Source: Klebsiella phage Sugarland. Taken from it: 64,000 bases of DNA. Where the stretch lies: the sequence record NC_042093.1. One strand, written 5' to 3'. The first letter of the stretch is position 1. Each line of letters opens with the position of its first letter. A program made the translations under genes and the position numbers. The notes under the pieces were generated by a model. It was not told where the DNA came from, did no database searches, and worked only from the letters and a program-made list of their open reading frames with translations. This document shows, in pieces, positions 1-40,777 of this stretch.

Positions 1-54
1 ACCGTATCTCAACCCAAGCCAGGCCGGCTTCCCCATCAGTCGTGCCCCGTAATT

Positions 55-132
55 TGGTACCCACTCCCGGACTCGAACCGGGAACCCTGAAGTCTTAAGC
101 CTCATGCCTCTACCAGATTGGACCAAGTGGGT
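55..132 (-). tRNA. tRNA with anticodon UAA (Leu-type anticodon) in a short-variable-arm (type I) body
   Basis: Acceptor ACCCACT/AGTGGGT; T arm CCCGG-TTCGAGT-CCGGG; anticodon loop CTTAAGA; CCA encoded. Confidence 0.6.
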
Positions 133-282
133 ATTAATCGTTATCCAAGTAGGCTTCTATAGCCTCTAGGGCTTCTAGAGTAGAGATATTGAATCTCTCT
201 TTAAGCACTACCACTAGAGTTTCCTGATTCCAGGAATCTACGGAATTAATGTAATTCTCGATGAAATTAGAGTAGCCACCCA

Positions 283-621
283 TTATCGAATCTCCAGACC
301 TTGGAAATACCGCGGGAATGGGCTGCCTACCTCAAAGTTGATGCCCCAGTTGAGTTCCACCAGCTCTGACTTGTCTAAAAGCAGATCATTGCCTTCAAAG
401 ATGTAACCATATACAGTTGGGAACATCGCCGCTAGATCCTCCATATTGGAGTAAGCATTATGCTCTTCACGGAATTGCTCAAACTCTTCAAAGAACTTCT
501 CAAGGAAGAACTCTGGTACAATGAACGTTACAACGTCAGTGCTGTCATCAATACGATAGACCGTTGCCTGGAATAGGCCGACACCGACCAGGTTGATAGC
601 AGGAGTAGTAAAGATATCCAT
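283..621 (-). CDS. hypothetical protein (112 aa)
   Basis: ORF track; acidic small protein typical of T5 early tRNA-region ORFs. Confidence 0.5.
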   Translation of the reverse strand: MDIFTTPAINLVGVGLFQATVYRIDDSTDVVTFIVPEFFLEKFFEEFEQFREEHNAYSNMEDLAAMFPTVYGYIFEGNDLLLDKSELVELNWGINFEVGSPFPRYFQGLEIR

Positions 622-623
622 TA

Positions 624-818
624 TTAATATACCTTGATTAAAGTATTGTCAATGGTGTTCAGGAACTTAACTGCTGCGTCTCTATTAGAGAATGTCTCCA
701 GCACGATAATGTTGTTCTCAGGATCACCGTTACGCACTCGTACCTGGTACGATACAATCACTTCCCAGCGGAACCATAAAGCTCGTGGATTATATCGCAT
801 AAGAATTTTTTGATTCAT
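624..818 (-). CDS. hypothetical protein (about 64 aa; listed ORF 624..878 reads through its own promoter)
   Basis: Internal ATG at 818 preceded by GAGGG Shine-Dalgarno; the -10/-35 elements lie at 850-878. Confidence 0.45.
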   Translation of the reverse strand: MNQKILMRYNPRALWFRWEVIVSYQVRVRNGDPENNIIVLETFSNRDAAVKFLNTIDNTLIKVY

Positions 819-849
819 TTGGTAAGCCCTCTCATCAATGTATATAAAC

Positions 850-878
850 ATTATACAAGAAATAAGAGCGTTTAGCAA
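850..878 (-). promoter_or_regulatory. T5-type strong sigma70 promoter
   Basis: -35 TTGCTA (revcomp of 873-878), 17-bp spacer, -10 TATAAT (revcomp of 850-855), upstream A-tract AAAAATTCATT. Confidence 0.6.
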
Positions 879-1123
879 ATGAATTTTTCGAACTTTCGGG
901 AAAATGCCACCCTAAGTCAATGCCACTACTTGAGACGTTATAGGCAATCTATCTCAAGTTGTCTGCCCCATTGCTTTCAGTGATTTCTGCACGCAGAAAT
1001 TCTTCTTGACTGGAGGACTTTACCACGTCAAACGGCCGGAAATCGGTGGCTTATTTTATCCTGTCACCCATCACCTGCTTGTCTGAGTTTAATCAGAGAG
1101 CCTGTAACGGGCTACTTGGGATT

Positions 1124-1258
1124 TGGAAGTATCAGTTGGATTCGAACCAACGCACCGGCTAACCTAGAGATCACCAGACGTTTCCAAGTCTGCTCACTAA
1201 CGGCCAGCTGCTTTACCGTGAGCTTTAGGACTATTCAGCTCCATAAGCTATTGATACT
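1124..1258 (-). ncRNA. tRNA-like stable RNA candidate (about 135 nt)
   Basis: Canonical T arm GTTGG-TTCGAAT-CCAAC and encoded CCA. Acceptor AGTATCA/TGATACT pairs only across a 135-nt span; internal hairpin CAGAC-TTGGAAAC-GTCTG; no standard anticodon arm. Confidence 0.4.
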
Positions 1259-1265
1259 ATTAATT

Positions 1266-1343
1266 TGGTGCAACCGGTTCGATTTGAACGAACGACCCCT
1301 GGACTTTCAAACCAGTGCTCTCACCTCGCTGAGCTACAGTTGC
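1266..1343 (-). tRNA. tRNA-Phe (GAA)
   Basis: Acceptor GCAACTG/CGGTTGC; D arm TAGCTCAGCGAGGTGAGAGC; anticodon loop TTGAAAG; T loop TTCAAAT; CCA. Confidence 0.7.
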
Positions 1344-1424
1344 GTAATTCGTGCCTGCTCCTTTGAATCAAGAAGTCCACCCCGGTCTTTGGGTCTTTGC
1401 AGTACATCACGCTGCTCTGATGTT

Positions 1425-1512
1425 TGGTGGAACTTGGGAGACTACGTGCTACTCCCCTCACAGACCGGGATTCCCCGCTATCTATGATGCTTAACCGATT
1501 AGCTGAAGTCCC
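1425..1512 (-). ncRNA. tRNA-like RNA candidate (88 nt) lacking a canonical T loop
   Basis: Acceptor GGGACTT/AAGTTCC plus CCA; D-like stem; internal CGGGG-AAT-CCCG hairpin. Packed between two tRNAs with 6-12 nt spacers. Confidence 0.35.
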
Positions 1513-1518
1513 ATAATG

Positions 1519-1594
1519 TGGTAGACCGCCCGGGACTCGAACCCGGAACCTATCGCTTAAAAGGCGAGTGCTCTAACCATTGAGCTAGCGATCT
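1519..1594 (-). tRNA. tRNA-Lys (UUU)
   Basis: Acceptor AGATCGC/GCGGTCT; anticodon loop CTTTTAA; T arm CCGGG-TTCGAGT-CCCGG; CCA. Confidence 0.65.
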
Positions 1595-1824
1595 AAAATA
1601 GTGTTTACTTCCCATACATGAGCATAGCAGCTTTTCGATACTATATGGGTTTCCGCCTCTGTTAAAGCGGCTTCAAATGTATCATGTAACGTTGTACCTT
1701 CGAATTTAATACTTGAATCTCCTGTTTGGGACTCTCTTGTTACAAACGCCTTATACTTAATCATGAGTACCTCTGGTAATTGGAGCACCATCATGGATTT
1801 TAACCATGCTGCGAGGGTTTGCAA
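1585..1824 (-). CDS. hypothetical protein (79 aa)
   Basis: ORF track. Confidence 0.45.
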   Translation of the reverse strand: MQTLAAWLKSMMVLQLPEVLMIKYKAFVTRESQTGDSSIKFEGTTLHDTFEAALTEAETHIVSKSCYAHVWEVNTILDR

Positions 1825-2082
1825 GCCTCTGCCTAGTCACTCGGCCAATGATGCATTGTTTAATTAGGGCGCACCGGAGTTCCACCGATTGCTAACGCTT
1901 CACTGCAACCTAAGTCGCTGTTCTTACCCTAATACTGTATTACTGACTAGGATTTTCACCTAGACGGAGTTAGCACCGTAGCGTGTAGCGGCATACCTCT
2001 CCAAACCGGGCCACATCTTTCAATTGCGGTGGCAGTATTCCTACGCGTGCCTAGGTTAATTAAATAACCTTTTCAGTAAAAT

Positions 2083-2160
2083 TGGCGGTTCCTGCTGGAC
2101 TTGAACCAGCAACCCTCAACTTAACAAGATGCCGCTCTAACCAATTGGAGCTAAGGAACC
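2083..2160 (-). tRNA. tRNA-Asn (GUU)
   Basis: Acceptor GGTTCCT/AGGAACC; anticodon loop TTGTTAA; T arm GCTGG-TTCAAGT-CCAGC; CCA. Anticodon stem is weak. Confidence 0.55.
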
Positions 2161-2627
2161 ATAAATTGTTTTAAGCTCTCATCGTTGAGAGAAGTCAACA
2201 ACGAGGCTAAGCTCTGGTCTAGAGTTACCCATTCATGGTCTGCTTTTAATAGACCGTGGAAACTCTTTTCTGCCTTACGAACATCTAACCAAAAAGACCA
2301 GTGGTACATTTTGTAATCTCTTAAAGGTGAGTAAGTTTGATATTGAGCCAACCTTTTGTGTGGCTGAGTGGATAAGCCTAACTTAACCCTGCCCGGCCAG
2401 GCTGGATTTGTGATCGCGTAGAGGAACCCTGCTGTTCCGTCTTTGTACCCAATAGATCTGTTATACTTAATTAGCGATAAAGCAGACAGCTTTAAGCTAT
2501 AGAGCATGTTAGATCGTTTACCAAAGTTGCCAGTACCACACTTTAAACTTTCTAACAGGACTTCTCTCGTTATTTCTATAGGTTGTCCTATTAGGTTAAG
2601 ATGTTGTGTTATTTTATCTGAAAACAT
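2151..2627 (-). CDS. T5orf172 / GIY-YIG-like domain protein
   Basis: Motif GFLYAITNPAWPGRVKLGLST...RLAQYQT resembles the T5orf172 (GIY-YIG-related) domain. Confidence 0.5.
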   Translation of the reverse strand: MFSDKITQHLNLIGQPIEITREVLLESLKCGTGNFGKRSNMLYSLKLSALSLIKYNRSIGYKDGTAGFLYAITNPAWPGRVKLGLSTQPHKRLAQYQTYSPLRDYKMYHWSFWLDVRKAEKSFHGLLKADHEWVTLDQSLASLLTSLNDESLKQFMVP

Positions 2628-2643
2628 ACCTATTACCTTAAAT

Positions 2644-2724
2644 TGGTGGGAGATGGAGGACTCGAACCTCCGTGTGGTATACCCGGTCTACAGCCAGGCG
2701 CCGTCGCCGCTGAGCCAATCTCCC
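2644..2724 (-). tRNA. tRNA-Tyr (GUA) with 10-nt variable region
   Basis: Acceptor GGGAGAT/ATCTCCC; anticodon stem-loop CCTGG-CTGTAGA-CCGGG at standard positions 27-43; T arm GGAGG-TTCGAGT-CCTCC; CCA. Confidence 0.6.
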
Positions 2725-2725
2725 G

Positions 2726-2763
2726 TATTTGAAGAAGCTCTCGTGAGAACCTCTTCAAATACC
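2726..2763. repeat. 11-bp inverted repeat hairpin directly abutting the tRNA-Tyr 5' end
   Basis: GTATTTGAAGA...TCTTCAAATAC. Confidence 0.5.
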
Positions 2764-2862
2764 TCGTCGAAACGAGATATTTGCTAACTTATTGTAACTA
2801 GGGCTGACCCTTGTGTCCGAGGATACCTCTAGACGGTCATATCTCTTAGCCCAGAGAGAATT

Positions 2863-2939
2863 TGGCGCGGCTAACGGGATTCGAACCCGTGGCTCCGACG
2901 TGACAGGCCGGTATGTTGACCGCTGAACACCATAGCCGC
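2863..2939 (-). tRNA. tRNA-Asp (GUC)
   Basis: Acceptor GCGGCTA/TAGCCGC; anticodon stem-loop CCGGC-CTGTCAC-GTCGG; T arm ACGGG-TTCGAAT-CCCGT; CCA. Confidence 0.7.
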
Positions 2940-2947
2940 TTAATTTG

Positions 2948-3056
2948 TTATTCCGGTTCGTACTCCATCAGATCATCTGACTCACACGTCGGACACTCCC
3001 AATGGCATTCACTTAACTCACCGCAATCGGAACAAATGTATAACTTAACTTCATCT
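2948..3056 (-). CDS. small zinc-ribbon protein (36 aa, CxxC...CxxC)
   Basis: MEDEVKLYICSDCGELSECHWECPTCESDD; RBS AGAGGA; below the ORF-track length cutoff. Confidence 0.35.
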
Positions 3057-3091
3057 TCCATTTGCTTTTCCTCTTTCGTTTCAATATAAAT

Positions 3092-3120
3092 ATTATACTA
3101 AATTTCAGGGTACTAGGCAA
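3092..3120 (-). promoter_or_regulatory. T5-type strong sigma70 promoter
   Basis: -35 TTGCCT, 17-bp spacer, -10 TATAAT, upstream AAAAATTCATT. Confidence 0.55.
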
Positions 3121-3132
3121 ATGAATTTTTCA

Positions 3133-3348
3133 TTAATCGTCTTCTTCGTCCCATGAAAGGGAGTGCATGAAGATCGGTAGAACTGTAGGTTCTACGTCAA
3201 GCGACGGGTAGAAATAAGTTTTACCTTGAGACAGGTCAATGAACGTAGGAGTTCTACCCTCCTGCATGTGTTCATCAACCTTGTCTAGGGCGTCGTTTAA
3301 CAGTTCGAAGCAGTCAGTATTCGCTCCGCAAACAACGATAAAATCCAT
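3133..3348 (-). CDS. hypothetical protein (71 aa)
   Basis: ORF track; stop overlaps the start of the downstream gene. Confidence 0.45.
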   Translation of the reverse strand: MDFIVVCGANTDCFELLNDALDKVDEHMQEGRTPTFIDLSQGKTYFYPSLDVEPTVLPIFMHSLSWDEEDD

Positions 3349-3725
3349 TAACGACCCCCGTTCGGGAAACCGGAGGCAAGCAGGAAGCGAACAACGTCTT
3401 CCAGCGACGGGCCTTCGCCATCTTCTTCTTCCAGATGGAAAGGCAGAATAGCGTACTGCATGTCAGCTGGTGCTACCGGGGTGAAAGTAGGCTCTGCGGG
3501 AGCTTCCGCCATGAACACTGCGGTTCCGTCAACCAGACGATCGATCGCTTCACAGACTTCTAGCTGCTCTTCGATCTTGGCCTCGCGTTCGCGCATCAGA
3601 GCCAGCAGTTCAGTGCGGTACTCTTCGATACGGCGGTCTAGAGACTCGATGTTATTGGACAGGTTATCCTGTACAATCATCAGGCGGACTACAGCAGAAT
3701 TTCCATTAGTTGGTCGTGTAAACAT
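3348..3725 (-). CDS. hypothetical protein (125 aa, coiled-coil)
   Basis: ORF track. Confidence 0.5.
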   Translation of the reverse strand: MFTRPTNGNSAVVRLMIVQDNLSNNIESLDRRIEEYRTELLALMREREAKIEEQLEVCEAIDRLVDGTAVFMAEAPAEPTFTPVAPADMQYAILPFHLEEEDGEGPSLEDVVRFLLASGFPNGGR

Positions 3726-3745
3726 GATATTTCCTCAGTTAATTG

Positions 3746-4018
3746 TTAGATAAAGTCGCCGGTAGAAACTACCAGTTTAATGCTTTTACGGAAGATTTCG
3801 TTCATACCGTCGTGAACCATTACTGTCCCGACCATTTTTGGAAGATAGACTTCCACGTCAATAGTTCCGTAGGGCATAGCGTGCTCGTCAGTAAGTTTAG
3901 TCCATAACTCCGGCTGAAGCTCGCAGTTATAGAACACCATCCACTCATGATCGCCATCCCATCCGTCCCAGTTAAGAACCAGTGCGGATTCAATACCTGT
4001 TGCAGTAACCTTTGACAT
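3746..4018 (-). CDS. hypothetical protein (90 aa)
   Basis: ORF track; RBS GAGAGGAG; promoter immediately upstream. Confidence 0.5.
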   Translation of the reverse strand: MSKVTATGIESALVLNWDGWDGDHEWMVFYNCELQPELWTKLTDEHAMPYGTIDVEVYLPKMVGTVMVHDGMNEIFRKSIKLVVSTGDFI

Positions 4019-4049
4019 TTGCTAACTCCTCTCATTAGTTTATGAATCT

Positions 4050-4078
4050 ATTATAGCAATTATAAGAGCGTTTAGCAA
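4050..4078 (-). promoter_or_regulatory. T5-type strong sigma70 promoter
   Basis: -35 TTGCTA, 17-bp spacer, -10 TATAAT, upstream A-tract. Confidence 0.6.
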
Positions 4079-4651
4079 ATGAATTTTTGAATTATCCGCT
4101 CCGAAGAGCGGTAATCCAGGCTTGCAGCTGTTAGTTACACTTGGTTTGAAGTTTGCGAGTCAAAGCGAAAGGGGGTCTATTCCTTACGGACGAAAGAGTT
4201 CCAAGCGCTGAGAGCTTTCAGGGACTGAAGGTTGATAGCCTCCCCGTTTCTGCAACTAACAAATCTTAACTTGAACGTTTAACGTGGGGATTGATTAGCC
4301 CCACTACACGCTAACCCCGGAAGGGATCGAACCTTCACAAGATAGACCATTTATCTCAGCCTCGTTTTCGGGTATCTTATGCAGAGTGGATGTTCTGCTT
4401 ACGCCCTTTAGGAAGCCCCGTATACCGATTCCGGCACGGCATCAACGCGCTAGGGCAATGACCGTCTAAAGTCCTAGCTTCTACATTTATACTCCTGGAC
4501 GGCATGGAGTCGATTCCCTAGACTTTTACTCAGCATTGCGCCAAAACCTGTAAAGGTAAGGATGGGGTATTCTTACGAATCTGGGATCGTCCCCATCAGA
4601 AATTACAGCTTCTCGGACGTTTGACGGCCCTGACTGAAGTCTCACTGTAAA

Positions 4652-4800
4652 TTGGTACTTGCTACTGATTTTGCACCAGCTACCATCGACGTGTAAAGAC
4701 GATGATCTCCCGATTGAGCTAAGCAAGTATTTGGTGGTCAATAGGGGGCCCGAACCCACTGGTAATGGAATCAAAGGGCGTTATGTTAACCGTTGCACTA
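4652..4800 (-). pseudogene. degenerate duplicate of the tRNA-Val/tRNA-Met block (tRNA pseudogenes)
   Basis: About 85% identical to 5227..5382, but the T arms are mutated (GCTGG-TGCAAAA-TCAGT; GTTCGGGCCCC). Confidence 0.5.
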
Positions 4801-4815
4801 CTCTTAAAAATGCCA

Positions 4816-5052
4816 TTAACTAGGTGCTATTTCTATCGGCTGAGATACATTAGGCTGTTCTAATGTATCTGGTGCTGATACAGAGAAAAGAGCCTGTAAT
4901 GCTGCAATATCGCGCTCGTAGGTATCAATACGAGTAGTAAGAGTATCTACCATTTGTTTATGGTGGGCTAAGTTATTTTGAGACTCATCTCGAAGAGCCT
5001 GAAGTTCTACAAGACGTGTTAACATAATTTCACTAAGTAAAGCATTACTCAT
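4816..5052 (-). CDS. hypothetical coiled-coil protein (78 aa)
   Basis: ORF track; RBS AGGAGAAATAA-ATG. Confidence 0.5.
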   Translation of the reverse strand: MSNALLSEIMLTRLVELQALRDESQNNLAHHKQMVDTLTTRIDTYERDIAALQALFSVSAPDTLEQPNVSQPIEIAPS

Positions 5053-5226
5053 TTATTTCTCCTAAGTTTTCGGGTTCTTCTAAACGTTTGCCTTCATGAT
5101 CTACTCGAATAACTCCGCATCCTTCGCAAATCACAACTGCACCATAACCTTCTTTGACTTCGGCTTCTATAATCAAACCAGAAAGATCACCAGTATCTCT
5201 GCTTTAACCGAAGTCTCACTGTAAAT

Positions 5227-5302
5227 TGGTACTTGCTGCTGGTTTCGAACCAGCTACCCTCGCCGTGTAAAGACGATGCTCTCCCGATTGAGCTAAGCAA
5301 GT
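5227..5302 (-). tRNA. tRNA-Val (UAC)
   Basis: Acceptor ACTTGCT/AGCAAGT; D arm GCTCAATCGGGAGAGC; anticodon stem-loop TCGTC-TTTACAC-GGCGA; T arm GCTGG-TTCGAAA-CCAGC; CCA. Confidence 0.7.
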
Positions 5303-5305
5303 ATT

Positions 5306-5382
5306 TGGTGGTCAATAGTGGACTCGAACCACTGTAGTCTCACGTATGAAGCGAGTGCATAAACCATCTCTGCCAACTGACC
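5306..5382 (-). tRNA. tRNA-Met/Ile2-type (CAU)
   Basis: Acceptor GGTCAGT/ATTGACC; anticodon stem-loop CTCGC-TTCATAC-GTGAG; T arm AGTGG-TTCGAGT-CCACT; CCA. Confidence 0.6.
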
Positions 5383-5539
5383 CAAAGAATTTGCCTCAAG
5401 AATCTTACGCTACTATTCTTCTCCTACCTATACCTGTTTTGCCCACAAAGTAAATTTGTCTAGGCCTAACAGGTAAGTACTATACTACGTACCATCGCTG
5501 GAGGATATTCCGATGAAATATCCTATAGGGGGCAAAAAT

Positions 5540-5615
5540 TGGTACTCCGAACTGGACTCGAACCAGTGTTTGGCGATTATCGGTCGCCTGTTCTAACCAA
5601 CTGAACTATCAGAGC
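5540..5615 (-). tRNA. tRNA-Ile (GAU)
   Basis: D arm GTTCAGTTGGTTAGAAC; anticodon stem-loop GGCGA-CCGATAA-TCGCC; T arm ACTGG-TTCGAGT-CCAGT; CCA. Confidence 0.7.
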
Positions 5616-5616
5616 A

Positions 5617-5775
5617 TTATTGTTCTTGCTGACGGACGCAGATTTCCTCGTCCGGGTGTATTTGAGCTATTCTAGCATCGTCCTCAGCTTCCTTGTACGT
5701 GTCATGAAAAGCCGGTGCCCAAAATACGATCTCTTTTGTGTGGGTATTAATTAGCATACCTTGATAGCGAATCAT
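5617..5775 (-). CDS. hypothetical protein (about 52 aa)
   Basis: Internal ATG with GAGGT RBS; the listed ORF 5617..5853 overlaps the upstream ORF in another frame. Confidence 0.35.
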   Translation of the reverse strand: MIRYQGMLINTHTKEIVFWAPAFHDTYKEAEDDARIAQIHPDEEICVRQQEQ

Positions 5776-5782
5776 GATTACC

Positions 5783-5977
5783 TCAACGTTTACCGTTTCG
5801 TGGTGCTCCTGGACGTCTAGCAGCCTCTGCCATTCGTTTCTTGATTTTAGCAATGTTCTCTGGTGTTTGTTCTGACTTGCGTAAGCCTGTCACGTTACAC
5901 CAGTTATCGCCATCCCAGGAAGTAATTAGCATTACTCCAGTACCCAGTACTCGTTCTGTAAAAGAGATTTTCATCAT
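5783..5977 (-). CDS. hypothetical protein (64 aa)
   Basis: ORF track. Confidence 0.35.
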   Translation of the reverse strand: MMKISFTERVLGTGVMLITSWDGDNWCNVTGLRKSEQTPENIAKIKKRMAEAARRPGAPRNGKR

Positions 5978-5990
5978 CTTCTCCTAGAAT

Positions 5991-6067
5991 TGGATGCTCC
6001 GGCAAGATTCGAACTTGCGATCTCCAGCTTATGAGACTGGCGAGGACGGCCTCTCCTCTACGGTGCA
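5991..6067 (-). tRNA. tRNA-Met/Ile2-type (CAU), second copy
   Basis: D arm GAGG-AGAGGCCGT-CCTC; anticodon stem-loop CCAGT-CTCATAA-GCTGG; T arm GCAAG-TTCGAAT-CTTGC; CCA. One A:A mismatch in the acceptor stem. Confidence 0.55.
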
Positions 6068-6069
6068 AT

Positions 6070-6144
6070 TGGCAGGGGCAACAAGAATCGAACTTGTGAC
6101 CTAAGGCTTCAGAGACCTCCGCTCTACCTACTGAGCTATACCCC
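6070..6144 (-). tRNA. tRNA-Gln (CUG)
   Basis: D arm GCTCAGTAGGTAGAGC; anticodon stem-loop GAGGT-CTCTGAA-GCCTT; T arm ACAAG-TTCGATT-CTTGT; CCA. Acceptor pairing is imperfect. Confidence 0.5.
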
Positions 6145-6153
6145 AATTATGCG

Positions 6154-6270
6154 CACTCTGCTGAGTACAACGTTGTGTCTAGGGCCAGAACATAAATGCT
6201 TGCATTTATGGGAGGCGGCTAGAAGAGGGATGTGACCCAGAGGGCTAACCTCGTCACTCTCAGCAGAGAT
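6154..6270. repeat. 10-bp inverted repeat (CTCTGCTGAG / CTCAGCAGAG) enclosing about 95 nt of non-coding sequence between tRNAs
   Basis: Seen directly in sequence. Confidence 0.5.
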
Positions 6271-6274
6271 TTTA

Positions 6275-6349
6275 TGGTACACCATCGAGGAATCGAACCT
6301 CAACCATAGAGTTCGTAGCTCTATATTCTATCCATTAAACTAATGGTGC
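6275..6349 (-). tRNA. tRNA-Arg (ACG)
   Basis: Acceptor GCACCAT/ATGGTGT; anticodon stem-loop TAGAG-CTACGAA-CTCTA; T loop TTCGATT; CCA. Confidence 0.6.
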
Positions 6350-6356
6350 AGTAACC

Positions 6357-6433
6357 TGGAGGGATATCTTGGACTCGAACCAAGATAGACTCGATCCACA
6401 ATCGAGGTCATTATCCAGTTATGATAATATCCC
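6357..6433 (-). tRNA. tRNA-His (GUG)
   Basis: Acceptor GGGATAT/ATATCCC; D stem TCAT/ATGA; anticodon stem-loop CTCGA-TTGTGGA-TCGAG; T arm CTTGG-TTCGAGT-CCAAG; CCA. Confidence 0.7.
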
Positions 6434-6434
6434 A

Positions 6435-6582
6435 AATTTGAGTACCATCGAGGGCTGATCAGACCTCCACAAATAGTATGTACATCGCACACACTATCCG
6501 GTTAGACCGCGTATTGGTACGTTGCACTTCGTGCAGCATATAACTCCAACAGGCGACTCATCGAACGATGATACTCAAATTT
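6435..6582. repeat. 17-bp inverted repeat (AAATTTGAGTAYCATCG) enclosing a structured non-coding core of about 110 nt
   Basis: Arms at 6435-6455 and 6560-6582; the interior contains TGCAC-GAA-GTGCA and other hairpins; no ORF. Confidence 0.5.
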
Positions 6583-6815
6583 GGTGGCCCTAAGAAACTC
6601 TTCCCACTAACAACTAGTTGATTACTTCTGGATTTTCGCCCAGAAAATTCTCTAGAAAGGGGCAACCGTTACTCGTCGGGCCATTGTGAATGGGCTGGTC
6701 TCTCAGCCCCGGTTACTACTTGATCCTTACGATCTGACGGCAACCACGTGCAGCGACCCTTCATATATTGTATAGTGCTCAGAAGGTCATTAGAAGCACT
6801 ACAACTTTCGTTGTT

Positions 6816-6902
6816 TGGCGGAAAGCGAAGGACTTGAACCTTCATGCCCTTTCGGACTCATCATTAGCAGTGATGCGTGGCTACCAGTTTCACCAGCTTT
6901 CC
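6816..6902 (-). tRNA. tRNA-Ser (GCU), type II
   Basis: Acceptor GGAAAGC/GCTTTCC; anticodon stem-loop CATCA-CTGCTAA-TGATG; long variable arm; T arm GAAGG-TTCAAGT-CCTTC; CCA. Confidence 0.7.
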
Positions 6903-6909
6903 AGTTGTT

Positions 6910-6994
6910 TGGCGGAGAATAAAGGAATCGAACCCTCACCGTTTCCGATGGCGACTGATTTCAAGTCAGCTTGCTCCCATGAGCACTACTCTCC
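6910..6994 (-). tRNA. tRNA-Ser (UGA), type II
   Basis: Acceptor GGAGAGT/ATTCTCC; anticodon stem-loop GCTGA-CTTGAAA-TCAGT; long variable arm; T loop TTCGATT; CCA. Confidence 0.6.
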
Positions 6995-7225
6995 AGTTAA
7001 TATTTGCTCTACTTCTTTACGGAGTTCATCAGGATCGGCATGATACGTGATTTCCCAGACGTACAGAACTCCGTTAGCACAAGCTAAGTCGAAGATCTCG
7101 CTTTCCGGTAGCACCAGCCCCATACACTTAATATGAAACTCTAGGGCTTCCTTACTCGGAAAGGTATGGACTTTACGGAACTCATTTTTCTTACGATCCA
7201 ACTGCATAATTTCTATGTTCATCAC
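6986..7225 (-). CDS. hypothetical protein (79 aa)
   Basis: ORF track. Confidence 0.5.
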   Translation of the reverse strand: MMNIEIMQLDRKKNEFRKVHTFPSKEALEFHIKCMGLVLPESEIFDLACANGVLYVWEITYHADPDELRKEVEQILTGE

Positions 7226-7239
7226 GAACTCCTGTTATT

Positions 7240-7326
7240 TGGTAGGGATGGAGGGGGTCGAACCCACACGGATATTTCACCACTAGAACCTAAATCTAGC
7301 GCGGCTGCCAATTTCGCCACATCCCC
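7240..7326 (-). tRNA. tRNA-Leu (UAG), type II
   Basis: Acceptor GGGGATG/CATCCCT; 3-bp D stem; anticodon stem-loop CTAGA-TTTAGGT-TCTAG; long variable arm; T loop TTCGACC; CCA. Confidence 0.65.
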
Positions 7327-7333
7327 ATTTGTT

Positions 7334-7409
7334 TGGTGGAGGATAACGGATTTGAACCGTTCTGATTCCCGCATTGCAAGTGCGGTGTCCACTCCCAGCA
7401 GACCCATCC
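7334..7409 (-). tRNA. tRNA-Ala (UGC)
   Basis: Anticodon stem-loop CCGCA-CTTGCAA-TGCGG; T arm AACGG-TTCAAAT-CCGTT; CCA. Acceptor has two mismatches. Confidence 0.55.
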
Positions 7410-7637
7410 CCCAATAATTTGTTAAGGCAATTAATCCGGTGCGCGTAATACCCTGAGCAATTAGCCATGCGAGGATATCCGCTCTTCACAAATACAATAC
7501 ACTCTACGCTTACCAGGCGTTTCGGAGAGCCACTCCGCTATTCTTGCAAACCCTCAGTTCAATTACCGAGCAAGCTGCAAGCGTGTTTTTTGGTTCCGGC
7601 TCTGTATCAGATTAATTCCTTAACAAACTATATAAAT

Positions 7638-7666
7638 ATTATATCAATTTGTTAAGCATTTAGCAA
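7638..7666 (-). promoter_or_regulatory. T5-type strong sigma70 promoter driving the tRNA block to its left
   Basis: -35 TTGCTA, 17-bp spacer, -10 TATAAT, upstream A-tract. Confidence 0.6.
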
Positions 7667-7742
7667 CTGAATTTTTCGGTAAATTTGGTACTCCCGACGG
7701 GGTTCGAACCCGTGTTCCCACTGTGAAAGAGTGGTGTCCTAA
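7666..7742 (-). tRNA. tRNA-Glu (UUC)
   Basis: D arm GTCTAAGCTGGTTAGGAC; anticodon stem-loop CCACT-CTTTCAC-AGTGG; T arm ACGGG-TTCGAAC-CCCGT; CCA. Confidence 0.7.
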
Positions 7743-7752
7743 CCAGCTTAGA

Positions 7753-7828
7753 CGACAGGAGCATTTTAAATTTGGCAAGGGAAGGAGGAGTTGAACCTAC
7801 CGATCTCGGAGTCAAAGGCCGATGCCGT
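7753..7828 (-). tRNA. tRNA-Gln (UUG)
   Basis: Acceptor AAGGGAA/TTCCCTT; anticodon loop CTTTGAC; T loop TTCAACT; CCA. Confidence 0.5.
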
Positions 7829-7859
7829 AACCACTTGGCTATTCCCTTTCAATACAAAT

Positions 7860-7888
7860 ATTATCTCAAATTCTAGAGCATTTAGCAA
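7860..7888 (-). promoter_or_regulatory. T5-type sigma70 promoter
   Basis: -35 TTGCTA, 17-bp spacer, -10 GATAAT, upstream A-tract. Confidence 0.5.
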
Positions 7889-7942
7889 TTGAATTTTTCA
7901 AGTATTTTGGTAGTGACCCGGCAACGCAGGTCACTATGCAAA

Positions 7943-8437
7943 CTACTCGCCGTGGTCTACACGAATGAGCGGACAAAGTTTGTCCTTCTTGTAGATTCGC
8001 ATCTTTTGGTAGATGTTACCGAAGCGAAGCTCTTCATCGCGAGCATTATACTCTTTCTGTGCTCTTTCAAAGGATTTACTCGCGTTCCATTCCTGGATCC
8101 GATCCCCTATCTTAGCGCAGGCCCAGCCGATCCCAGCTATCGCCAGCAGAATCGCTACTATCGTAGATAGTCCTGCTAGACTTAACCCTACAAGCATGTA
8201 CCAGGGAGTAATTCCCAGCTCAAAGGTGAGGCCCAAGAACGTAGATAAGATACTTCCCATCCCCAAGGAGAAGAGTACAGCAATAGCAGTTACGCCAATC
8301 TGTAGCAGGAAATACCACACTGAGTGCCAAAATAGGCTACACAAGGTGACTCTGTTGTCGTTCAGCCGATAGGTGAAAGACGCGGAAGAGAAATTAAGCC
8401 ACTTGTAGAAAAAACCTTTACGTTTAATATTCAGCAT
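7943..8437 (-). CDS. integral membrane protein (164 aa, about 4 TM helices)
   Basis: Long hydrophobic segments (VTAIAVLFSLGMGSILSTFLGL..., LVGLSLAGLSTIVAILLAIAGIGWA). Confidence 0.55.
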   Translation of the reverse strand: MLNIKRKGFFYKWLNFSSASFTYRLNDNRVTLCSLFWHSVWYFLLQIGVTAIAVLFSLGMGSILSTFLGLTFELGITPWYMLVGLSLAGLSTIVAILLAIAGIGWACAKIGDRIQEWNASKSFERAQKEYNARDEELRFGNIYQKMRIYKKDKLCPLIRVDHGE

Positions 8438-8447
8438 ATTTAGCCTA

Positions 8448-8669
8448 TTACTTGAGTTGATTGATTAGGAAAACTTGTAGCGCGATAATGAATGCGGCAT
8501 AGGAGTCAGAGCCTTTACCACCTTCGTTCTCATTAACTTCTTTTAGTAGGGCTTCAAAAGCTGCTTTGTGACGCTCATAGTGCCCTCTGACTGTCGGGCC
8601 AGCATCCTCTAACATGCCTAAAAGCATATAGTACTGGGTTTGTAATTGGGCGTCCATTAGTCCTCCCAC
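8448..8669 (-). CDS. hypothetical protein (73 aa)
   Basis: ORF track. Confidence 0.45.
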   Translation of the reverse strand: MGGLMDAQLQTQYYMLLGMLEDAGPTVRGHYERHKAAFEALLKEVNENEGGKGSDSYAAFIIALQVFLINQLK

Positions 8670-8854
8670 ACGATTTTAATCGAGAGAAGACGATTTACAG
8701 GAATGACCAGCATAGTCTCAGACCGTTTATTAAGAATTTCCAGGATATCCCCATCACGATGGAGCAGACGTTTAGGACTGATATCTGTTACTGTGGACTC
8801 TAGGACGATACCACTGTCATCCACGAAGGATACGATTGCGTTTTTAGTAGACAT
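8657..8854 (-). CDS. hypothetical protein (65 aa)
   Basis: ORF track; overlaps the downstream ORF by 13 nt (translational coupling). Confidence 0.45.
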   Translation of the reverse strand: MSTKNAIVSFVDDSGIVLESTVTDISPKRLLHRDGDILEILNKRSETMLVIPVNRLLSIKIVWED

Positions 8855-8875
8855 TTTAGTCTCCTGTTATGAAAT

Positions 8876-8950
8876 TGGTGGGCCAGGGGAGACTCTAACT
8901 CCCACTCGTTGGCTTATGAGGCCACTGCTTTAACTTTAAGCTACCGGCCC
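8876..8950 (-). tRNA. tRNA-Met/Ile2-type (CAU), third copy, isolated from the main cluster
   Basis: Acceptor GGGCCGG/CTGGCCC; anticodon loop CTCATAA; T arm GGGAG-TTAGAGT-CTCCC; CCA. Confidence 0.55.
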
Positions 8951-9092
8951 AGAGAAAGGCTATTTCTAACCCTTATTTAGTTATACTGCTGCTTCGTCTT
9001 TCGGAGTACCTTCAACTGGGGTTCCTCAGTTGGAGTATCTTCAACCGGCTCAGGATCTTTCACGAAGGCTGCTTCTTCATCGGAGATCGGAG

Positions 9093-9248
9093 ATCACATA
9101 CAGATCCTGAATATCCTCTGTATTGATCATACGAGCTACGCTACCATCTTTATAGAAGATGGATTTAGTGCCCTCGTTGCGAGCCATGTTCGCATCGATA
9201 ACCAGCTCAGTAAGAACCCCTTTCTTTAAATATTCAATTTTGTAAGCC
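9093..9248 (-). CDS. hypothetical protein (51 aa) ending at a tandem 9-nt repeat; the downstream frame stays open to 8977
   Basis: MAYKIEYLKKGVLTELVIDANMARNEGTKSIFYKDGSVARMINTEDIQDLYVISDLR*. The +1 frame continues SPISDEEAAFVKDPEPVEDTPTEEPQ... to a stop at 8977. Confidence 0.4.
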
Positions 9249-9378
9249 ATTTTATCCTCTACTTTCTCTTTGATTTAAAGAACTATTATACAAAATTTCT
9301 GACAGAATTGCAAGAAAAATTTTGTAGAATCAATCTCAGTCTGCGCTCTGCGGGCTTTTTAGCGATGGCCACAACAAA

Positions 9379-9888
9379 TTACGTGTGACCTTTCGCTGCT
9401 TGTGGAGGTAGGCCAGTTAGCTTAGTAAATCGCTTTCTAAGCCCATTATCCGATAACCCTAGCTCTTTAGCTGCCCTTGTCCATGAGTAGTTAGATACCC
9501 AATATCTAATGTCCTCCTCTGTTATTTCAGGGAATGATAGGGGTTTGCGGGTTTTGGGTATTACTCTAGTCCTGCCCAAATCTTCTAGGGTTTTATCTAT
9601 GTGGGCTTCTTGCGATAGAACCTGGAGATTACTTAGTGCAAAGTCTGTTCTTACCCTATTAATGTGATCCACTTCTAGTGGTGAATCTAATGTAGGTAAA
9701 TCTTTGAATATAAAGGCTAGTAATCGATGTACTAATAAATTTCTTTGCACACCTTTCTGCTGTAATTTGTAGCAGGGGTACCCTGCTGTATTTATAAAGT
9801 ACTTGAGGTACTTGTTAGACCTGCGAGAGAAGATACTCCCGTCTTCTCGAAGGAAGTATCCTGGGTACTGAGGTATTTCTATTAGCAT
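9379..9888 (-). CDS. HNH homing endonuclease
   Basis: EVDHINRVRTD...N HNH motif after an N-terminal NUMOD-like region; C-terminal HTH. Confidence 0.7.
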   Translation of the reverse strand: MLIEIPQYPGYFLREDGSIFSRRSNKYLKYFINTAGYPCYKLQQKGVQRNLLVHRLLAFIFKDLPTLDSPLEVDHINRVRTDFALSNLQVLSQEAHIDKTLEDLGRTRVIPKTRKPLSFPEITEEDIRYWVSNYSWTRAAKELGLSDNGLRKRFTKLTGLPPQAAKGHT

Positions 9889-9896
9889 AGTTTATG

Positions 9897-9978
9897 TGGC
9901 CGAGGCGGCAGGATTCGAACCCGCATACTCCAATTACTCGATTAACGACGGGTTAGAAGCCCGTTGAGATACGCCCCG
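9897..9978 (-). ncRNA. tRNA-like element (UCU Arg-type anticodon hairpin) with an aberrant D region
   Basis: Acceptor CGGGGCG/CGCCTCG plus CCA; T arm GCGGG-TTCGAAT-CCTGC; hairpin ACGGG-CTTCTAA-CCCGT; no D stem; 23-nt extra arm. Confidence 0.4.
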
Positions 9979-9992
9979 AATAATTCGTTTGG

Positions 9993-10169
9993 TTAATAAA
10001 GTTTAAGCGTTTTTACAACCAGATCGTGAACCTGTTCAGAATACCGGCCAACGCTCTTATGCAGCGACTCTTTAAACTCTAGAGTACGTCTAGCGATTAG
10101 CTGCTTCTGTTCAGGTGTCAGATTAGGTGCCGGACGCTCATACGGAGGAGTATGCACAGATGCCACCAT
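9993..10169 (-). CDS. hypothetical protein (58 aa)
   Basis: Unlisted small ORF, MVASVHTPPYERPAPNLTPEQKQLIARRTLEFKESLHK...; its start lies 2 nt from the stop of the upstream gene. Confidence 0.3.
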   Translation of the reverse strand: MVASVHTPPYERPAPNLTPEQKQLIARRTLEFKESLHKSVGRYSEQVHDLVVKTLKLY

Positions 10170-10171
10170 TA

Positions 10172-40686: not shown

Positions 40687-40777
40687 CTTTAGCTTACCAG
40701 TATATGCTTTAAGGGCTTATGATGTACTCTTCCAAGAGGGGGAGTACATTGTTATCCAGACGAGATTTACAAGGTAT

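What the first reader, a model, noticed from the sequence alone, without database searches (positions are those of the whole stretch)
1124..1258. 135-nt tRNA-like RNA with perfect T arm and CCA but no anticodon arm
The RNA lies between bona fide tRNAs in the same orientation. Its 3' end is a textbook T arm plus acceptor strand plus encoded CCA. The complementary acceptor strand is found only 135 nt upstream. The interior contains a CAGAC-TTGGAAAC-GTCTG hairpin with an 8-nt loop and an AGCT/AGCT D-like stem. I recall that T5-family tRNA regions have been reported to specify small stable RNAs of unknown function in addition to tRNAs; this element and the 88-nt one at 1425-1512 fit that description.
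Basis: partly seen in the sequence, partly recalled or inferred. Interest (0 to 1): 0.6.

Follow-up and report, generated by a model that had tools for sequence, protein, structure and literature searches.

The report
Long-armed tRNA-like RNA gene in phage
A Klebsiella T5-like phage encodes, inside its tRNA gene array, a conserved 135-nt RNA with a real tRNA core, an extra hairpin in the D loop and a roughly fourfold-elongated anticodon arm; it belongs to the old, still unexplained class of phage "tRNA-like stable RNAs".

Summary
On the minus strand, 1258..1124 carries a 7-bp acceptor stem, a canonical T arm (GUUGG-UUCGAAU-CCAAC), discriminator U and CCA, 7 nt after tRNA-Phe. The window is a Sugarlandvirus (100% to Klebsiella phages Roth37 and Spivey). 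The element is unannotated in all 66 GenBank phage records that hold it, and no Rfam family reaches threshold.

Across 15 distinct sequences one fold is kept: 95.8% of cells are paired and 19 pairs show compensatory double changes. That fold has:
- an acceptor stem and a T arm;
- a canonical D stem with the conserved core bases, plus a 25-nt hairpin inserted in the D loop;
- an arm of about 17 bp at the anticodon-arm position, capped by the invariant loop UUGGAAA plus one nucleotide.

That loop matches the anticodon loop of T5-group tRNA-Ser(GGA), a tRNA the two Sugarlandvirus genomes checked lack.

T5 RefSeq annotates analogous "tRNA-like stable RNAs" (RNA1, RNA2) and T4 has species 1 RNA. 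These share the architecture but not specific homology.

Best reading: a tRNA-derived, non-decoding RNA matured by the tRNA-processing pathway. A role as a tRNA mimic or decoy is inferred, not shown. I rate it a new member of a known kind.

The parts
1124..1258 (-). Whole 135-nt tRNA-like RNA gene. RNA nt n corresponds to window coordinate 1259-n.
   Evidence: Homology among relatives begins and ends at these borders although the flanking genes differ. The covariance model scores it at 167 bits here.
1259..1265 (-). 7-nt spacer AAUUAAU between the CCA of tRNA-Phe and nt 1. U at position -1 is conserved in all 9 aligned copies.
1252..1258 (-). Acceptor stem, 5' strand (nt 1-7, AGUAUCA).
   Evidence: All 7 pairs show compensatory double changes across 15 distinct sequences.
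1128..1134 (-). Acceptor stem, 3' strand (nt 125-131, UGAUACU).
1124..1127 (-). Discriminator U plus encoded CCA (nt 132-135). The discriminator is U, A or C in relatives. The Sealy/VAC51/KPN4 group encodes UCA instead of CCA.
1245..1248 (-). D stem, 5' strand (nt 11-14, GCUU). It is preceded by U9 and A10 (equivalent to U8, A9) and followed by A15 (equivalent to A14), all invariant.
   Evidence: 100% paired. G-C to A-U and U-A to C-G double changes are seen. Invariant columns.
1210..1213 (-). D stem, 3' strand (nt 46-49, AAGC).
1218..1242 (-). 25-nt hairpin inserted in the D loop (nt 17-41). The stem is 17-22/35-41. The 12-nt loop GAAUAGUCCUAA lies at 1225-1236, with invariant GUCCUA at 1226-1231.
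   Evidence: 98.8% paired. G20-C37 changes to A-U in 6 sequences, and PM135 lengthens the stem by matched insertions on both sides.
1216..1217 (-). Invariant G42 G43, equivalent to G18 G19 (partners of the T loop). They are followed by U44 and invariant A45 (equivalent to A21).
   Evidence: Invariant columns. The canonical role is an inference from tRNA architecture.
1202..1208 (-). Elongated anticodon-position arm, proximal helix, 5' strand (nt 51-57, GCUGGCC).
   Evidence: G-U to G-C changes are seen, and double changes in PM135.
1158..1164 (-). Proximal helix, 3' strand (nt 95-101, GGUUAGC).
1193..1201 (-). Middle segment, 5' side (nt 58-66). It is variable in sequence and partly paired (60-62 and 64-65).
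   Evidence: The pair 62/92 is weak (5 of 11 sequences).
1165..1174 (-). Middle segment, 3' side (nt 85-94, GUGAUCUCUA). It is almost invariant, more than pairing alone would require.
   Evidence: The divergent L130 relative shares GGUGAUCGCUAGG.
1175..1192 (-). Distal hairpin (nt 67-84), CAGAC/GUCUG. The 8-nt loop UUGGAAAC lies at 1180-1187. UUGGAAA is invariant; the eighth nucleotide is C or U.
   Evidence: 100% paired, with A-U changing to G-C in PM135. The loop equals the 7-nt anticodon loop of T5, PM135 and TrudiGerster tRNA-Ser(GGA).
1152..1157 (-). 6-nt variable region (nt 102-107). Y102 sits opposite R50, in the position of the 26/44 pair.
1135..1151 (-). Canonical T arm (nt 108-124), GUUGG-UUCGAAU-CCAAC.
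   Evidence: 100% paired, with one double change.

Best explanation
The element is a gene for a tRNA-derived, non-decoding structured RNA. My estimate that this much is right is about 0.85-0.9.

Processing (inferred, about 0.7). It is co-transcribed with the neighbouring tRNAs. It keeps everything the tRNA maturation machinery reads: a 7-bp acceptor stem with U at -1, a canonical T arm, the D/T elbow nucleotides and a CCA or CCA-repairable 3' end. It would therefore be cut out by RNase P at the 5' end and by 3' trimming or CCA addition, and would accumulate as a stable L-shaped RNA.

Two expansions distinguish it from a tRNA:
- a 25-nt hairpin inserted in the D loop, displaying an invariant GUCCUA;
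- an anticodon-position arm lengthened from 5 bp to about 17 bp, which displays the anticodon loop of the T5-group tRNA-Ser(GGA), UUGGAAA, plus one extra nucleotide.

By simple helix geometry this loop sits roughly 35-40 Angstrom farther from the elbow than an anticodon does, so the RNA cannot decode on the ribosome.

Function (inference only, about 0.3). It works as a tRNA mimic: a natural 'tRNA scaffold' that presents an anticodon-like loop and a second conserved loop to a tRNA-binding partner. The partner I consider most likely is a host tRNA-targeting defence or toxin nuclease, or a tRNA-modifying enzyme, which the RNA would titrate away from real tRNAs.

Origin (inferred). It derives from a tRNA, possibly tRNA-Ser(GGA). 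The first 50 nt look like a tandem duplication of the acceptor 5' strand plus D arm, and the nested 'swapped' pairing of the two copies would create the D-loop hairpin.
For: Location
- It lies in the tRNA array, on the same strand, 7 nt after tRNA-Phe.
- In another lineage it lies 6 nt after tRNA-Leu and 5 nt before tRNA-Pro. The conserved block therefore ends exactly at the predicted mature ends while its neighbours differ.

Structure
- One fold holds in 15 distinct sequences: 95.8% of cells paired, 19 pairs with double changes, 0 of 500 shuffles as good, and slid controls at 25-45%.
- tRNA core bases are invariant: U9/A15/A45 (equivalent to U8/A14/A21), G42 G43 (equivalent to G18 G19) and the T-loop UUC..AA.
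- Loops are invariant while stems covary.

Distribution
- Present in 66 phage records, mostly Sugarlandvirus, plus Eos and Proteus phage PM135.
- Present in 3 metagenome contigs, and in a divergent 107-nt relative in an unrelated large phage that shares only the distal module, T arm and CCA.

Link to tRNA-Ser(GGA)
- The distal loop is identical to the tRNA-Ser(GGA) anticodon loop of T5, PM135 and TrudiGerster.
- Roth37 (identical to the window) and Sealy carry the element and lack tRNA-Ser(GGA). T5 and TrudiGerster show the reverse.

Precedent
- T5 RNA1 and RNA2 and T4 species 1 RNA are annotated stable RNAs with the same architecture.

Context for the decoy idea
- Phage tRNAs are proposed to counter anticodon nucleases, and VapC toxins cleave Ser tRNAs, including GGA, within the anticodon (PMC10264068; PMC10644984).
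Against: - There are no expression data. Promoter-like sites in the region occur at chance frequency.
- No partner has been identified. Neighbouring proteins have no Pfam domain and fall in PHROGs of unknown function.
- There is no above-chance complementarity to the phage window or to E. coli rRNAs that is conserved in the family.
- The decoy idea rests on loop identity and on analogy alone.
- The E. coli tRNA-Ser(GGA) loop, as I remember it, is CUGGAAA. The mimicry would then be of the phage-type loop rather than the host one.
- PM135 has both tRNA-Ser(GGA) and a copy of the element. The acceptor stem of that copy is broken by recombination next to an HNH endonuclease gene, yet its inner helices still covary. 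The acceptor may therefore not be essential everywhere.
- The complementary distribution with tRNA-Ser(GGA) rests on only five genomes.
- The minimum free energy of the single sequence is unremarkable (z = -1.5).
Confidence: 0.5

Rival explanations
1. It is an ordinary tRNA gene interrupted by an intron or insertion. Two versions exist: ARAGORN's 'tRNA-Gln(CUG) with a 46-nt intron', or the Rfam reading of an inner tRNA (nt 27-132) with 43 nt in place of the anticodon loop. In either case the RNA would be spliced to a working tRNA.
For: ARAGORN in intron mode returns a solution spanning exactly 1124-1258. The Rfam tRNA model matches 1127-1232(-) at 21.2 bits with a 43-nt insertion.
Against: - ARAGORN's D stem (75% paired) and anticodon stem (78% paired, one pair never formed) show no compensation.
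- The acceptor stem of the inner tRNA is only 61.6% paired.
- 21.2 bits is below Rfam's gathering score of 29.
- ARAGORN in default mode does not call it. KpGranit's tRNAs carry tRNAscan-SE 2.0 notes and no tRNA is annotated at the element.
- The predicted intron sits inside the anticodon, not at position 37/38.
- The window already has tRNA-Gln(CUG) at 6070-6145.
- From general knowledge, bacterial and phage tRNA introns are group I introns of 200 nt or more, and no splicing endonuclease is known in these phages.
Confidence: 0.03
2. It is a decaying pseudogene, the relic of a duplicated or rearranged tRNA gene with no function of its own.
For: - tRNA finders do not recognise it.
- The 5' 50 nt look like a tandem duplication (nt 1-26 against nt 27-50).
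- The PM135 copy has a non-complementary acceptor 3' strand and a duplicated 30-nt 3' end next to an HNH endonuclease gene.
- The window also holds a degenerate second tRNA-Val.
Against: - 19 base pairs keep pairing through double substitutions, and matched indels lengthen a stem.
- Loops of 6-8 nt are invariant across lineages whose stems differ.
- The same distal module sits in a different scaffold in an unrelated phage.
- The element keeps precise borders while moving between two positions in the array.
Confidence: 0.08
3. It is the working tRNA-Ser(GGA) of Sugarlandviruses, an aminoacylated decoder with an unusual shape, or a quadruplet or frameshift decoder using its 8-nt loop.
For: - The loop UUGGAAA is identical to the phage tRNA-Ser(GGA) anticodon loop.
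- The Sugarlandvirus genomes checked lack tRNA-Ser(GGA).
- The 3' half, from loop to CCA, has the length of a class II tRNA 3' half.
Against: - The covariation-supported arm places the loop about 12-14 bp farther from the elbow than in any decoder. By standard ribosome geometry (inference) that is incompatible with simultaneous A-site decoding and peptidyl transfer.
- There is no free-standing long variable arm, which as far as I know is the main SerRS identity element.
- The discriminator varies (U, A, C), and G73 is absent.
- tRNA-Ser(UGA) is present and can cover UCN codons, so nothing forces a replacement.
Confidence: 0.04
4. It is a tRNA-scaffolded RNA with a purpose other than defence evasion. 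Examples are the RNA subunit or regulator of a phage protein, or a modulator of host tRNA processing or translation such as RNase P, the CCA-adding enzyme or EF-Tu.
For: The structural evidence is the same as for the best explanation. The near-invariant 3' strand GGUGAUCNCUAGG and the loop GUCCUA are conserved beyond what pairing needs, which suggests sequence-specific recognition. Stable RNAs of the same build in T4 and T5 still carry no assigned function in their RefSeq annotations.
Against: No co-varying or co-located protein gene was found. No evidence available here separates this reading from the decoy reading.
Confidence: 0.25
5. The conservation reflects a protein-coding gene on the plus strand. 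The ORF 1116-1487(+), 123 aa, and ORFs like it are annotated 'hypothetical protein' over this region in several GenBank records.
For: ORFs exist on the plus strand and are annotated in some records.
Against: The ORF runs antisense through the bona fide tRNA-Phe. Relatives differ by 1-nt indels inside it (Sealy group, PM135). Substitutions are paired across stems rather than placed at codon third positions.
Confidence: 0.01

Closest known systems
Phage T5 'tRNA-like stable RNAs' RNA1 (144 nt) and RNA2 (125 nt), annotated in RefSeq NC_005859
   Same: They are encoded inside the tRNA cluster of a Demerecviridae phage, on the tRNA strand. They have an acceptor-like stem plus a canonical T arm, an arm at the anticodon position elongated by extra helices, a size of 125-144 nt and no known function. 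A true homologue of T5 RNA1 is also present in this window at about 4300-4450(-).
   Different: There is no specific homology. The element's covariance model gives RNA1 17 bits and RNA2 13.5 bits, within the range of ordinary tRNAs at 14-29 bits. T5 RNA1 has a separate variable-arm hairpin. Neither annotated T5 RNA ends in an encoded CCA. Neither has the D-loop hairpin or the UUGGAAA loop.
Phage T4 species 1 RNA (rnaC, 139 nt) and species 2 RNA (rnaD, 119 nt)
   Same: They are small stable RNAs encoded at the end of a phage tRNA cluster. rnaC has a canonical T arm (CCGGG-UUCGAAU-CCCGG), paired ends and long extra hairpins, and is of similar size. No function is given in the RefSeq annotation.
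   Different: The phage family is different (Straboviridae). There is no sequence homology (22 bits, partial). The arrangement of arms differs.
tRNA-Ser(GGA) of T5-group phages (T5, PM135, TrudiGerster)
   Same: The 7-nt loop UUGGAAA on a 5-bp stem is identical. A UGA motif follows the stem. The length from loop to CCA is similar, and the T arm is canonical.
   Different: The loop has an eighth nucleotide. The stem-loop sits on top of about 12 extra base pairs. There is no free variable-arm hairpin. The region 5' of the stem is about 37 nt longer. The element is not detected as a tRNA.
Engineered 'tRNA scaffold' for recombinant RNA, and other natural tRNA mimics: the tmRNA tRNA-like domain, bacterial YrlA Y-like RNAs, MHV68 tRNA-miRNA chimeras (all recalled from memory, not tested)
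   Same: The principle is the same. A tRNA acceptor/T-arm core gives processing and stability, while a foreign or elongated helix replaces the anticodon arm and carries the functional part.
   Different: There is no tag reading frame or pseudoknots as in tmRNA; ARAGORN's tmRNA mode gives only a spurious 368-nt call. There is no Rfam hit to YrlA or tmRNA even at E up to 10. Here the 5' and 3' ends form the acceptor stem, which is not the case in YrlA.

Membership tests
Canonical tRNA (Rfam RF00005) | 7-bp acceptor stem, discriminator base, CCA or a CCA-addable end | tested here: met
   7 of 7 pairs form, and all are compensated in relatives.
Canonical tRNA (Rfam RF00005) | T arm with 5-bp stem and a UUCRAnY loop | tested here: met
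   GUUGG-UUCGAAU-CCAAC, 100% paired.
Canonical tRNA (Rfam RF00005) | D arm of 3-4 bp with a loop of 7-11 nt carrying G18 G19 | tested here: inconclusive
   The stem and the equivalents of U8, A14, G18, G19 and A21 are present and invariant, but the loop carries a 25-nt hairpin insertion.
Canonical tRNA (Rfam RF00005) | 5-bp anticodon stem with a 7-nt loop at a fixed distance from the elbow | tested here: not met
   The arm is about 17 bp in three helical segments and ends in an 8-nt loop.
Canonical tRNA (Rfam RF00005) | Score at or above the family gathering threshold, or detection by tRNA finders | tested here: not met
   21.2 bits against a threshold of 29. ARAGORN in default mode does not call it. 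KpGranit's tRNA annotations carry tRNAscan-SE 2.0 notes and no tRNA is annotated at the element.
Intron-containing tRNA | Exons form a conserved cloverleaf once the intron is removed | tested here: not met
   The exon D stem (75% paired) and anticodon stem (78% paired, one pair never formed) show no covariation.
Intron-containing tRNA | A splicing mechanism is available (group I ribozyme core, or a BHB motif with its endonuclease) | not tested
   The inserts are 25 and about 41 nt, too short for a group I intron by general knowledge. No BHB search was run.
T5 RNA1 / RNA2 sequence families | Detectable sequence and structure homology | tested here: not met
   Covariance model scores of 17 and 13.5 bits, no better than ordinary tRNAs.
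Phage tRNA-cluster 'tRNA-like stable RNA' (functional class: T5 RNA1/RNA2, T4 species 1) | Encoded within a phage tRNA array on the tRNA strand, with tRNA-like termini and extra helices | tested here: met
Phage tRNA-cluster 'tRNA-like stable RNA' (functional class: T5 RNA1/RNA2, T4 species 1) | Accumulates as a discrete stable RNA in infected cells | not testable with these tools
   This needs Northern blotting or small-RNA sequencing.
tmRNA | tRNA-like domain plus a tag-peptide reading frame and pseudoknots | tested here: not met
   ARAGORN's default tRNA+tmRNA scan finds no tmRNA. Relaxed tmRNA mode gives only a 368-nt artefact spanning tRNA-Phe, with 'Tag not identified'.
YrlA / bacterial Y RNA | Match to the Rfam models, with a Ro-binding stem formed by the RNA termini | tested here: not met
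   No Rfam hit at E up to 10. The termini form a tRNA acceptor stem ending in CCA.

The most novel reading that the evidence does not exclude
The RNA is a tRNA-Ser(GGA)-derived anti-defence decoy. It would be a naturally evolved 'tRNA scaffold', matured by RNase P and the CCA pathway. It would display an uncleavable or mis-spaced anticodon loop (UUGGAAA plus one nucleotide) on a long arm, together with a second conserved loop, to trap a host tRNA-targeting nuclease or toxin, or a tRNA-modifying enzyme. If so, it would give the first function for the fifty-year-old class of phage tRNA-like stable RNAs (T4 species 1/2, T5 RNA1/RNA2).
Probability: 0.15. Interest if true: 0.8.

Novelty: new member of a known kind. 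Interest (0 to 1): 0.45.

Why it matters
Phage tRNA clusters have long been known to encode "stable RNAs of unknown function". These include T4 species 1 and 2 and T5 RNA1 and RNA2.

This element adds a covariation-proven family to that class, and its design is unusually easy to read:
- an intact tRNA core;
- a hairpin grown out of the D loop;
- an anticodon arm stretched beyond any decoding geometry, yet still capped by the loop of a specific phage tRNA.

That makes the class experimentally approachable. The loops are obvious targets for mutation, and the RNA is an obvious bait for pull-downs. Klebsiella T5-like phages are being collected widely for therapy, so deletion and host-range tests are practical.

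There is also an annotation point. All 66 GenBank records leave the element unannotated, or cover it with a spurious antisense "hypothetical protein".

Tried and rejected
1. ARAGORN intron mode gave 'tRNA-Gln(CUG) with a 46-nt intron'. Its specific stems fail the comparative test.
2. The Rfam 'inner tRNA' reading (nt 27-132) has an acceptor only 61.6% paired.
4. Homology to T5 RNA1, RNA2 and the other T5 misc_RNAs, and to T4 rnaC and rnaD, was tested with the covariance model and filters off. Only generic tRNA-level scores came back.
5. I looked for a parent tRNA among the 23 tRNAs of the window. No convincing match appeared.
6. I searched for the distal module outside tRNA-like scaffolds. IMG/VR and GTDB genomes gave only chance hits inside coding DNA.
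7. I searched for base-pairing targets.
   - Complements of the two conserved loops occur at chance frequency in the window.
   - The longest antisense word in the window is at chance length.
   - A 12-nt complementarity of nt 96-107 to E. coli 16S rRNA 500-511 is reached by only 0.5% of shuffles. It is lost in Sealy, L143, PM135 and L130, so it is coincidental.
   - UGGAAACG in 16S helix 8, and GGUGAUC against the 16S 3' tail, are at chance length.
8. E. coli genomes hold no match.
9. Neighbouring proteins have no Pfam domain and only PHROGs of unknown function.
10. Literature searches for T5 or T4 stable RNAs in the open-access library found nothing specific.
Full report
**Source and setting.** The window matches Klebsiella phages Roth37, Roth39, Roth49, Roth50 and Spivey at 100%. 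These are T5-like phages; the close relatives with a full taxonomy line are Sugarlandvirus, Demerecviridae. ARAGORN finds 22 tRNA genes in the first 9 kb, all on the minus strand. Rfam confirms 20 at gathering score. The finding lies 7 nt downstream of tRNA-Phe(GAA) on that strand.

**Observation.** Read on the minus strand, 1258..1124 is a 135-nt sequence with these features:
- AGUAUCA at nt 1-7, perfectly complementary to UGAUACU at nt 125-131;
- discriminator U and CCA at the 3' end;
- a canonical T arm, GUUGG-UUCGAAU-CCAAC;
- a hairpin CAGAC-UUGGAAAC-GUCUG.

AGTATCA occurs only once on this strand within kilobases. ARAGORN in default mode does not call the element. No Rfam family reaches threshold. 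The only Rfam hint is the tRNA model at 21.2 bits (threshold 29), which reads nt 27-132 as a tRNA with 43 nt in place of the anticodon loop.

**Relatives.** BLAST finds the element in 66 phage records.
- Nearly all are Klebsiella phages, and those with a full taxonomy line are Sugarlandvirus.
- Diverged copies occur in the Sealy/Shiner/VAC51/KPN4/Kpn2-P1 group (about 86-88%), FZ41 (90%), 'Bacteriophage Eos' (94%) and Proteus phage PM135, genus Novosibvirus (72%).

No record annotates it. Some place an antisense 'hypothetical protein' over it. KpGranit's tRNA annotations carry tRNAscan-SE 2.0 notes, and no tRNA is annotated at the element.

A covariance model built here finds three more full-length copies in metagenome contigs. 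It also finds a divergent 107-nt relative, L130:626-732, at 40 bits and E about 1e-8. That relative lies in a contig whose neighbouring gene resembles genes of large Vibrio and Bacillus phages. It shares GCAGACUUGGAAACGUCUGGUGAUCGCUAGG, the T arm and CCA, but has a short D region.

The element occupies two different places in the array:
- after tRNA-Phe in the window, Eos and FZ41;
- between tRNA-Leu(UAA) and tRNA-Pro in the Sealy group, with spacers of only 5-7 nt.

Similarity starts a few bases before nt 1 and stops at the CCA/UCA. The conserved unit therefore coincides with the predicted mature RNA.

**Secondary structure.** I tested four structures on a 13-sequence alignment with 11 distinct rows.

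| Structure tested | Result |
|---|---|
| S2 (below) | 96.3% of cells paired, 13 pairs with changes on both sides, no shuffle as good, slid controls 25-43% |
| ARAGORN intron-mode 'tRNA-Gln(CUG), 46-nt intron', spanning exactly 1124-1258 | its D stem 75% and anticodon stem 78% paired, one pair never formed, no compensation |
| Rfam 'inner tRNA' (nt 27-132) | acceptor 61.6% paired |

S2 consists of:
- acceptor 1-7/125-131;
- D stem 11-14/46-49;
- inserted hairpin 17-22/35-41;
- proximal helix 51-57/95-101;
- a partly paired middle segment;
- distal hairpin 67-71/80-84;
- T arm 108-112/120-124.

RNAalifold recovers the main S2 helices without being given them. With the metagenome copies and L130 added (15 distinct rows), 95.8% of cells pair and 19 pairs have double changes, including all 7 acceptor pairs. 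That alignment was fitted to the model, so it leans towards the model. The independent MAFFT alignment and RNAalifold result agree with it.

**Reading the fold as a tRNA.**
- U9, A10, the stem 11-14/46-49, A15, G42 G43, A45 and R50 line up with U8, A9, the D stem, A14, G18 G19, A21 and position 26 of a tRNA. All but position 50, which varies A/G, are invariant in the 13-sequence alignment. The core and elbow are therefore probably intact, which is an inference.
- The D loop carries a 25-nt hairpin whose 12-nt loop contains an invariant GUCCUA.
- The arm between position 26 and the 6-nt variable region is the anticodon arm by position. It comprises 7 bp, about 5 bp with a mismatch, and 5 bp, and it ends in an 8-nt loop.
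- By ordinary A-form geometry, the loop lies some 35-40 Angstrom farther out than an anticodon. The RNA therefore cannot decode, which is also an inference.
- The 3' strand of the middle segment (GGUGAUCNCUAGG) is almost invariant although its partner strand varies. That points to sequence-specific recognition.

**Link to tRNA-Ser(GGA).** The distal loop is UUGGAAA plus one variable nucleotide (C or U) in every copy. UUGGAAA is exactly the anticodon loop of tRNA-Ser(GGA) in T5, PM135 and the Epseptimavirus TrudiGerster. A UGA motif follows the stem in both the element and those tRNAs.

The distribution among five genomes looks complementary:
- Roth37 (identical to the window) and Sealy carry the element and have only Ser(GCU) and Ser(UGA).
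- T5 and TrudiGerster have Ser(GGA). The covariance model found no copy of the element in the T5 tRNA region, and TrudiGerster was not among the BLAST hits.
- PM135 has both, but its copy of the element has a non-complementary acceptor 3' strand. Its last 30 nt are duplicated just upstream, directly after an HNH homing-endonuclease gene, so it is a recombinant.

Five genomes are few, so this is a lead rather than a result.

The first 50 nt also look like a tandem duplication of the acceptor 5' strand plus D arm (nt 1-26 against nt 27-50). The nested pairing of the two copies would generate exactly the observed D-loop hairpin. It would also explain why the Rfam model sees a second, inner acceptor strand. 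This too is inference.

**What is known.** T5 RefSeq annotates eight misc_RNAs in its tRNA region. Two of them, RNA1 (144 nt) and RNA2 (125 nt), are labelled 'tRNA-like stable RNA with unknown functions'. T4 annotates rnaC (species 1) and rnaD (species 2) at the end of its tRNA cluster.

Their predicted folds share the build seen here: paired ends, a canonical T arm and an elongated arm at the anticodon position. The covariance model nevertheless scores them at 13.5-22 bits, the same as ordinary tRNAs at 14-29 bits. The resemblance is therefore one of kind, not of family. The window does contain a real homologue of T5 RNA1 at about 4300-4450(-).

**Function.**

*Shown:* a conserved RNA-level fold, tRNA-like termini, placement in a tRNA array, and invariant loops.

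*Inferred:* excision by RNase P (U at -1 in all 9 aligned copies) and 3' maturation. CCA is encoded in most copies. The Sealy group encodes UCA and would need trimming and CCA addition.

*Hypothesis (about 0.3):* the RNA is a tRNA mimic that offers an anticodon-like loop to a tRNA-binding partner, most plausibly a tRNA-targeting defence nuclease or toxin. The context is that phage tRNAs are proposed to counter such nucleases, and VapC toxins cut Ser tRNAs in the anticodon (PMC10264068; PMC10644984).

Nothing here identifies the partner:
- neighbouring proteins are uninformative;
- there are no conserved antisense targets in the window or in rRNA;
- there is no match in E. coli genomes.

**Verdict.** The element is a real, well-supported, unannotated structured RNA gene. 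It is a new family within the known but unexplained class of phage tRNA-like stable RNAs. It is not a canonical or intron-containing tRNA, not a pseudogene by the comparative evidence, and not protein-coding.

Noticed in passing
It folds as a cloverleaf-like RNA with a 7-bp acceptor plus ACCA, a 3-bp D arm, an elongated central hairpin and a non-canonical 'T' hairpin, GGGAG-UAGCACGUAGU-CUCCC (z = -2.8). It is conserved in 94 phage records, including Epseptimavirus phages of Salmonella and E. coli. Three consecutive acceptor pairs are compensated (GGGACUU/AAGUUCC against GGGGUCU/AGACUCC). It has no Rfam hit and is unannotated.
   Followed up: partly
window ~4300-4450 (-): A homologue of T5 RNA1 ('tRNA-like stable RNA') is present, with about 81% column identity. 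The block GAGAUAAAUGGUCUAUCU.GUGAAGGUUC is nearly identical. The distal hairpin covaries (CUAGGA/UCCUAG against GCAGA/UCUGC) around a conserved 8-nt loop, ACAUCC(G/A)C. ARAGORN and Rfam do not call it.
   Followed up: partly
window ~11290-11400 (-): Another tRNA-like sequence is missed by ARAGORN and by Rfam (E up to 1, window 1-12000). It has a tRNA-Leu-like D region (UAAGUUAAUUGGUAGACUU), a canonical T arm (UGCAGG-UUCGAAU-CCUGC) and an imperfect acceptor.
   Followed up: no
window 9900-9978 (-): Rfam calls a tRNA here at 33.3 bits, just above threshold. ARAGORN does not. Its anticodon region is unusual.
   Followed up: no
window 4653-4728 (-) versus 5227-5302 (-): There are two tRNA-Val(UAC) copies. 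The first has a degenerate T arm (GCTGGTGCAAAATCAGT against GCTGGTTCGAAACCAGC) and scores 39.7 bits against 59.8, so it is probably decaying.
   Followed up: no
L003 (Proteus phage PM135) 12-746; also L010: An HNH homing-endonuclease gene ends directly before a 30-nt duplicate of the element's 3' end (T-arm half, acceptor 3' strand and ACCA). The element's own acceptor strands are not complementary. This looks like a recombination scar linking homing endonucleases to the shuffling of tRNA-like modules.
   Followed up: partly
L130:626-732 (+) (metagenome contig ERZ1046148 NODE_26546): A 107-nt tRNA-like RNA sits in an unrelated large phage, standing alone between protein genes. It carries the same distal module (GCAGACUUGGAAACGUCUGGUGAUCGCUAGG), T arm and UCCA end, but a short D region. 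The downstream protein falls in phrog_2475, of unknown function.
   Followed up: partly
window 1152-1163 (-) (RNA nt 96-107): There is a 12-nt perfect complementarity to E. coli 16S rRNA 500-511, in helix 18. Only 0.5% of shuffles reach that length, but it is not conserved in Sealy, L143, PM135 or L130, so I judged it coincidental.
   Followed up: yes
window 1046-1162 (+), 1116-1487 (+), 1351-1494 (+): Plus-strand ORFs run antisense through tRNA-Phe and both tRNA-like elements. Equivalent ORFs are annotated 'hypothetical protein' in several GenBank records (Roth37, GlastoCabaret, VAC35, the K7_rec series). They are probably spurious calls.
   Followed up: partly
L276 12658-12742 (Klebsiella phage Sealy record 40657-40741): The depositors annotated a 'tRNA-OTHER' here, and ARAGORN does not call it. 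It may be yet another non-canonical tRNA-like gene of the cluster.
   Followed up: no
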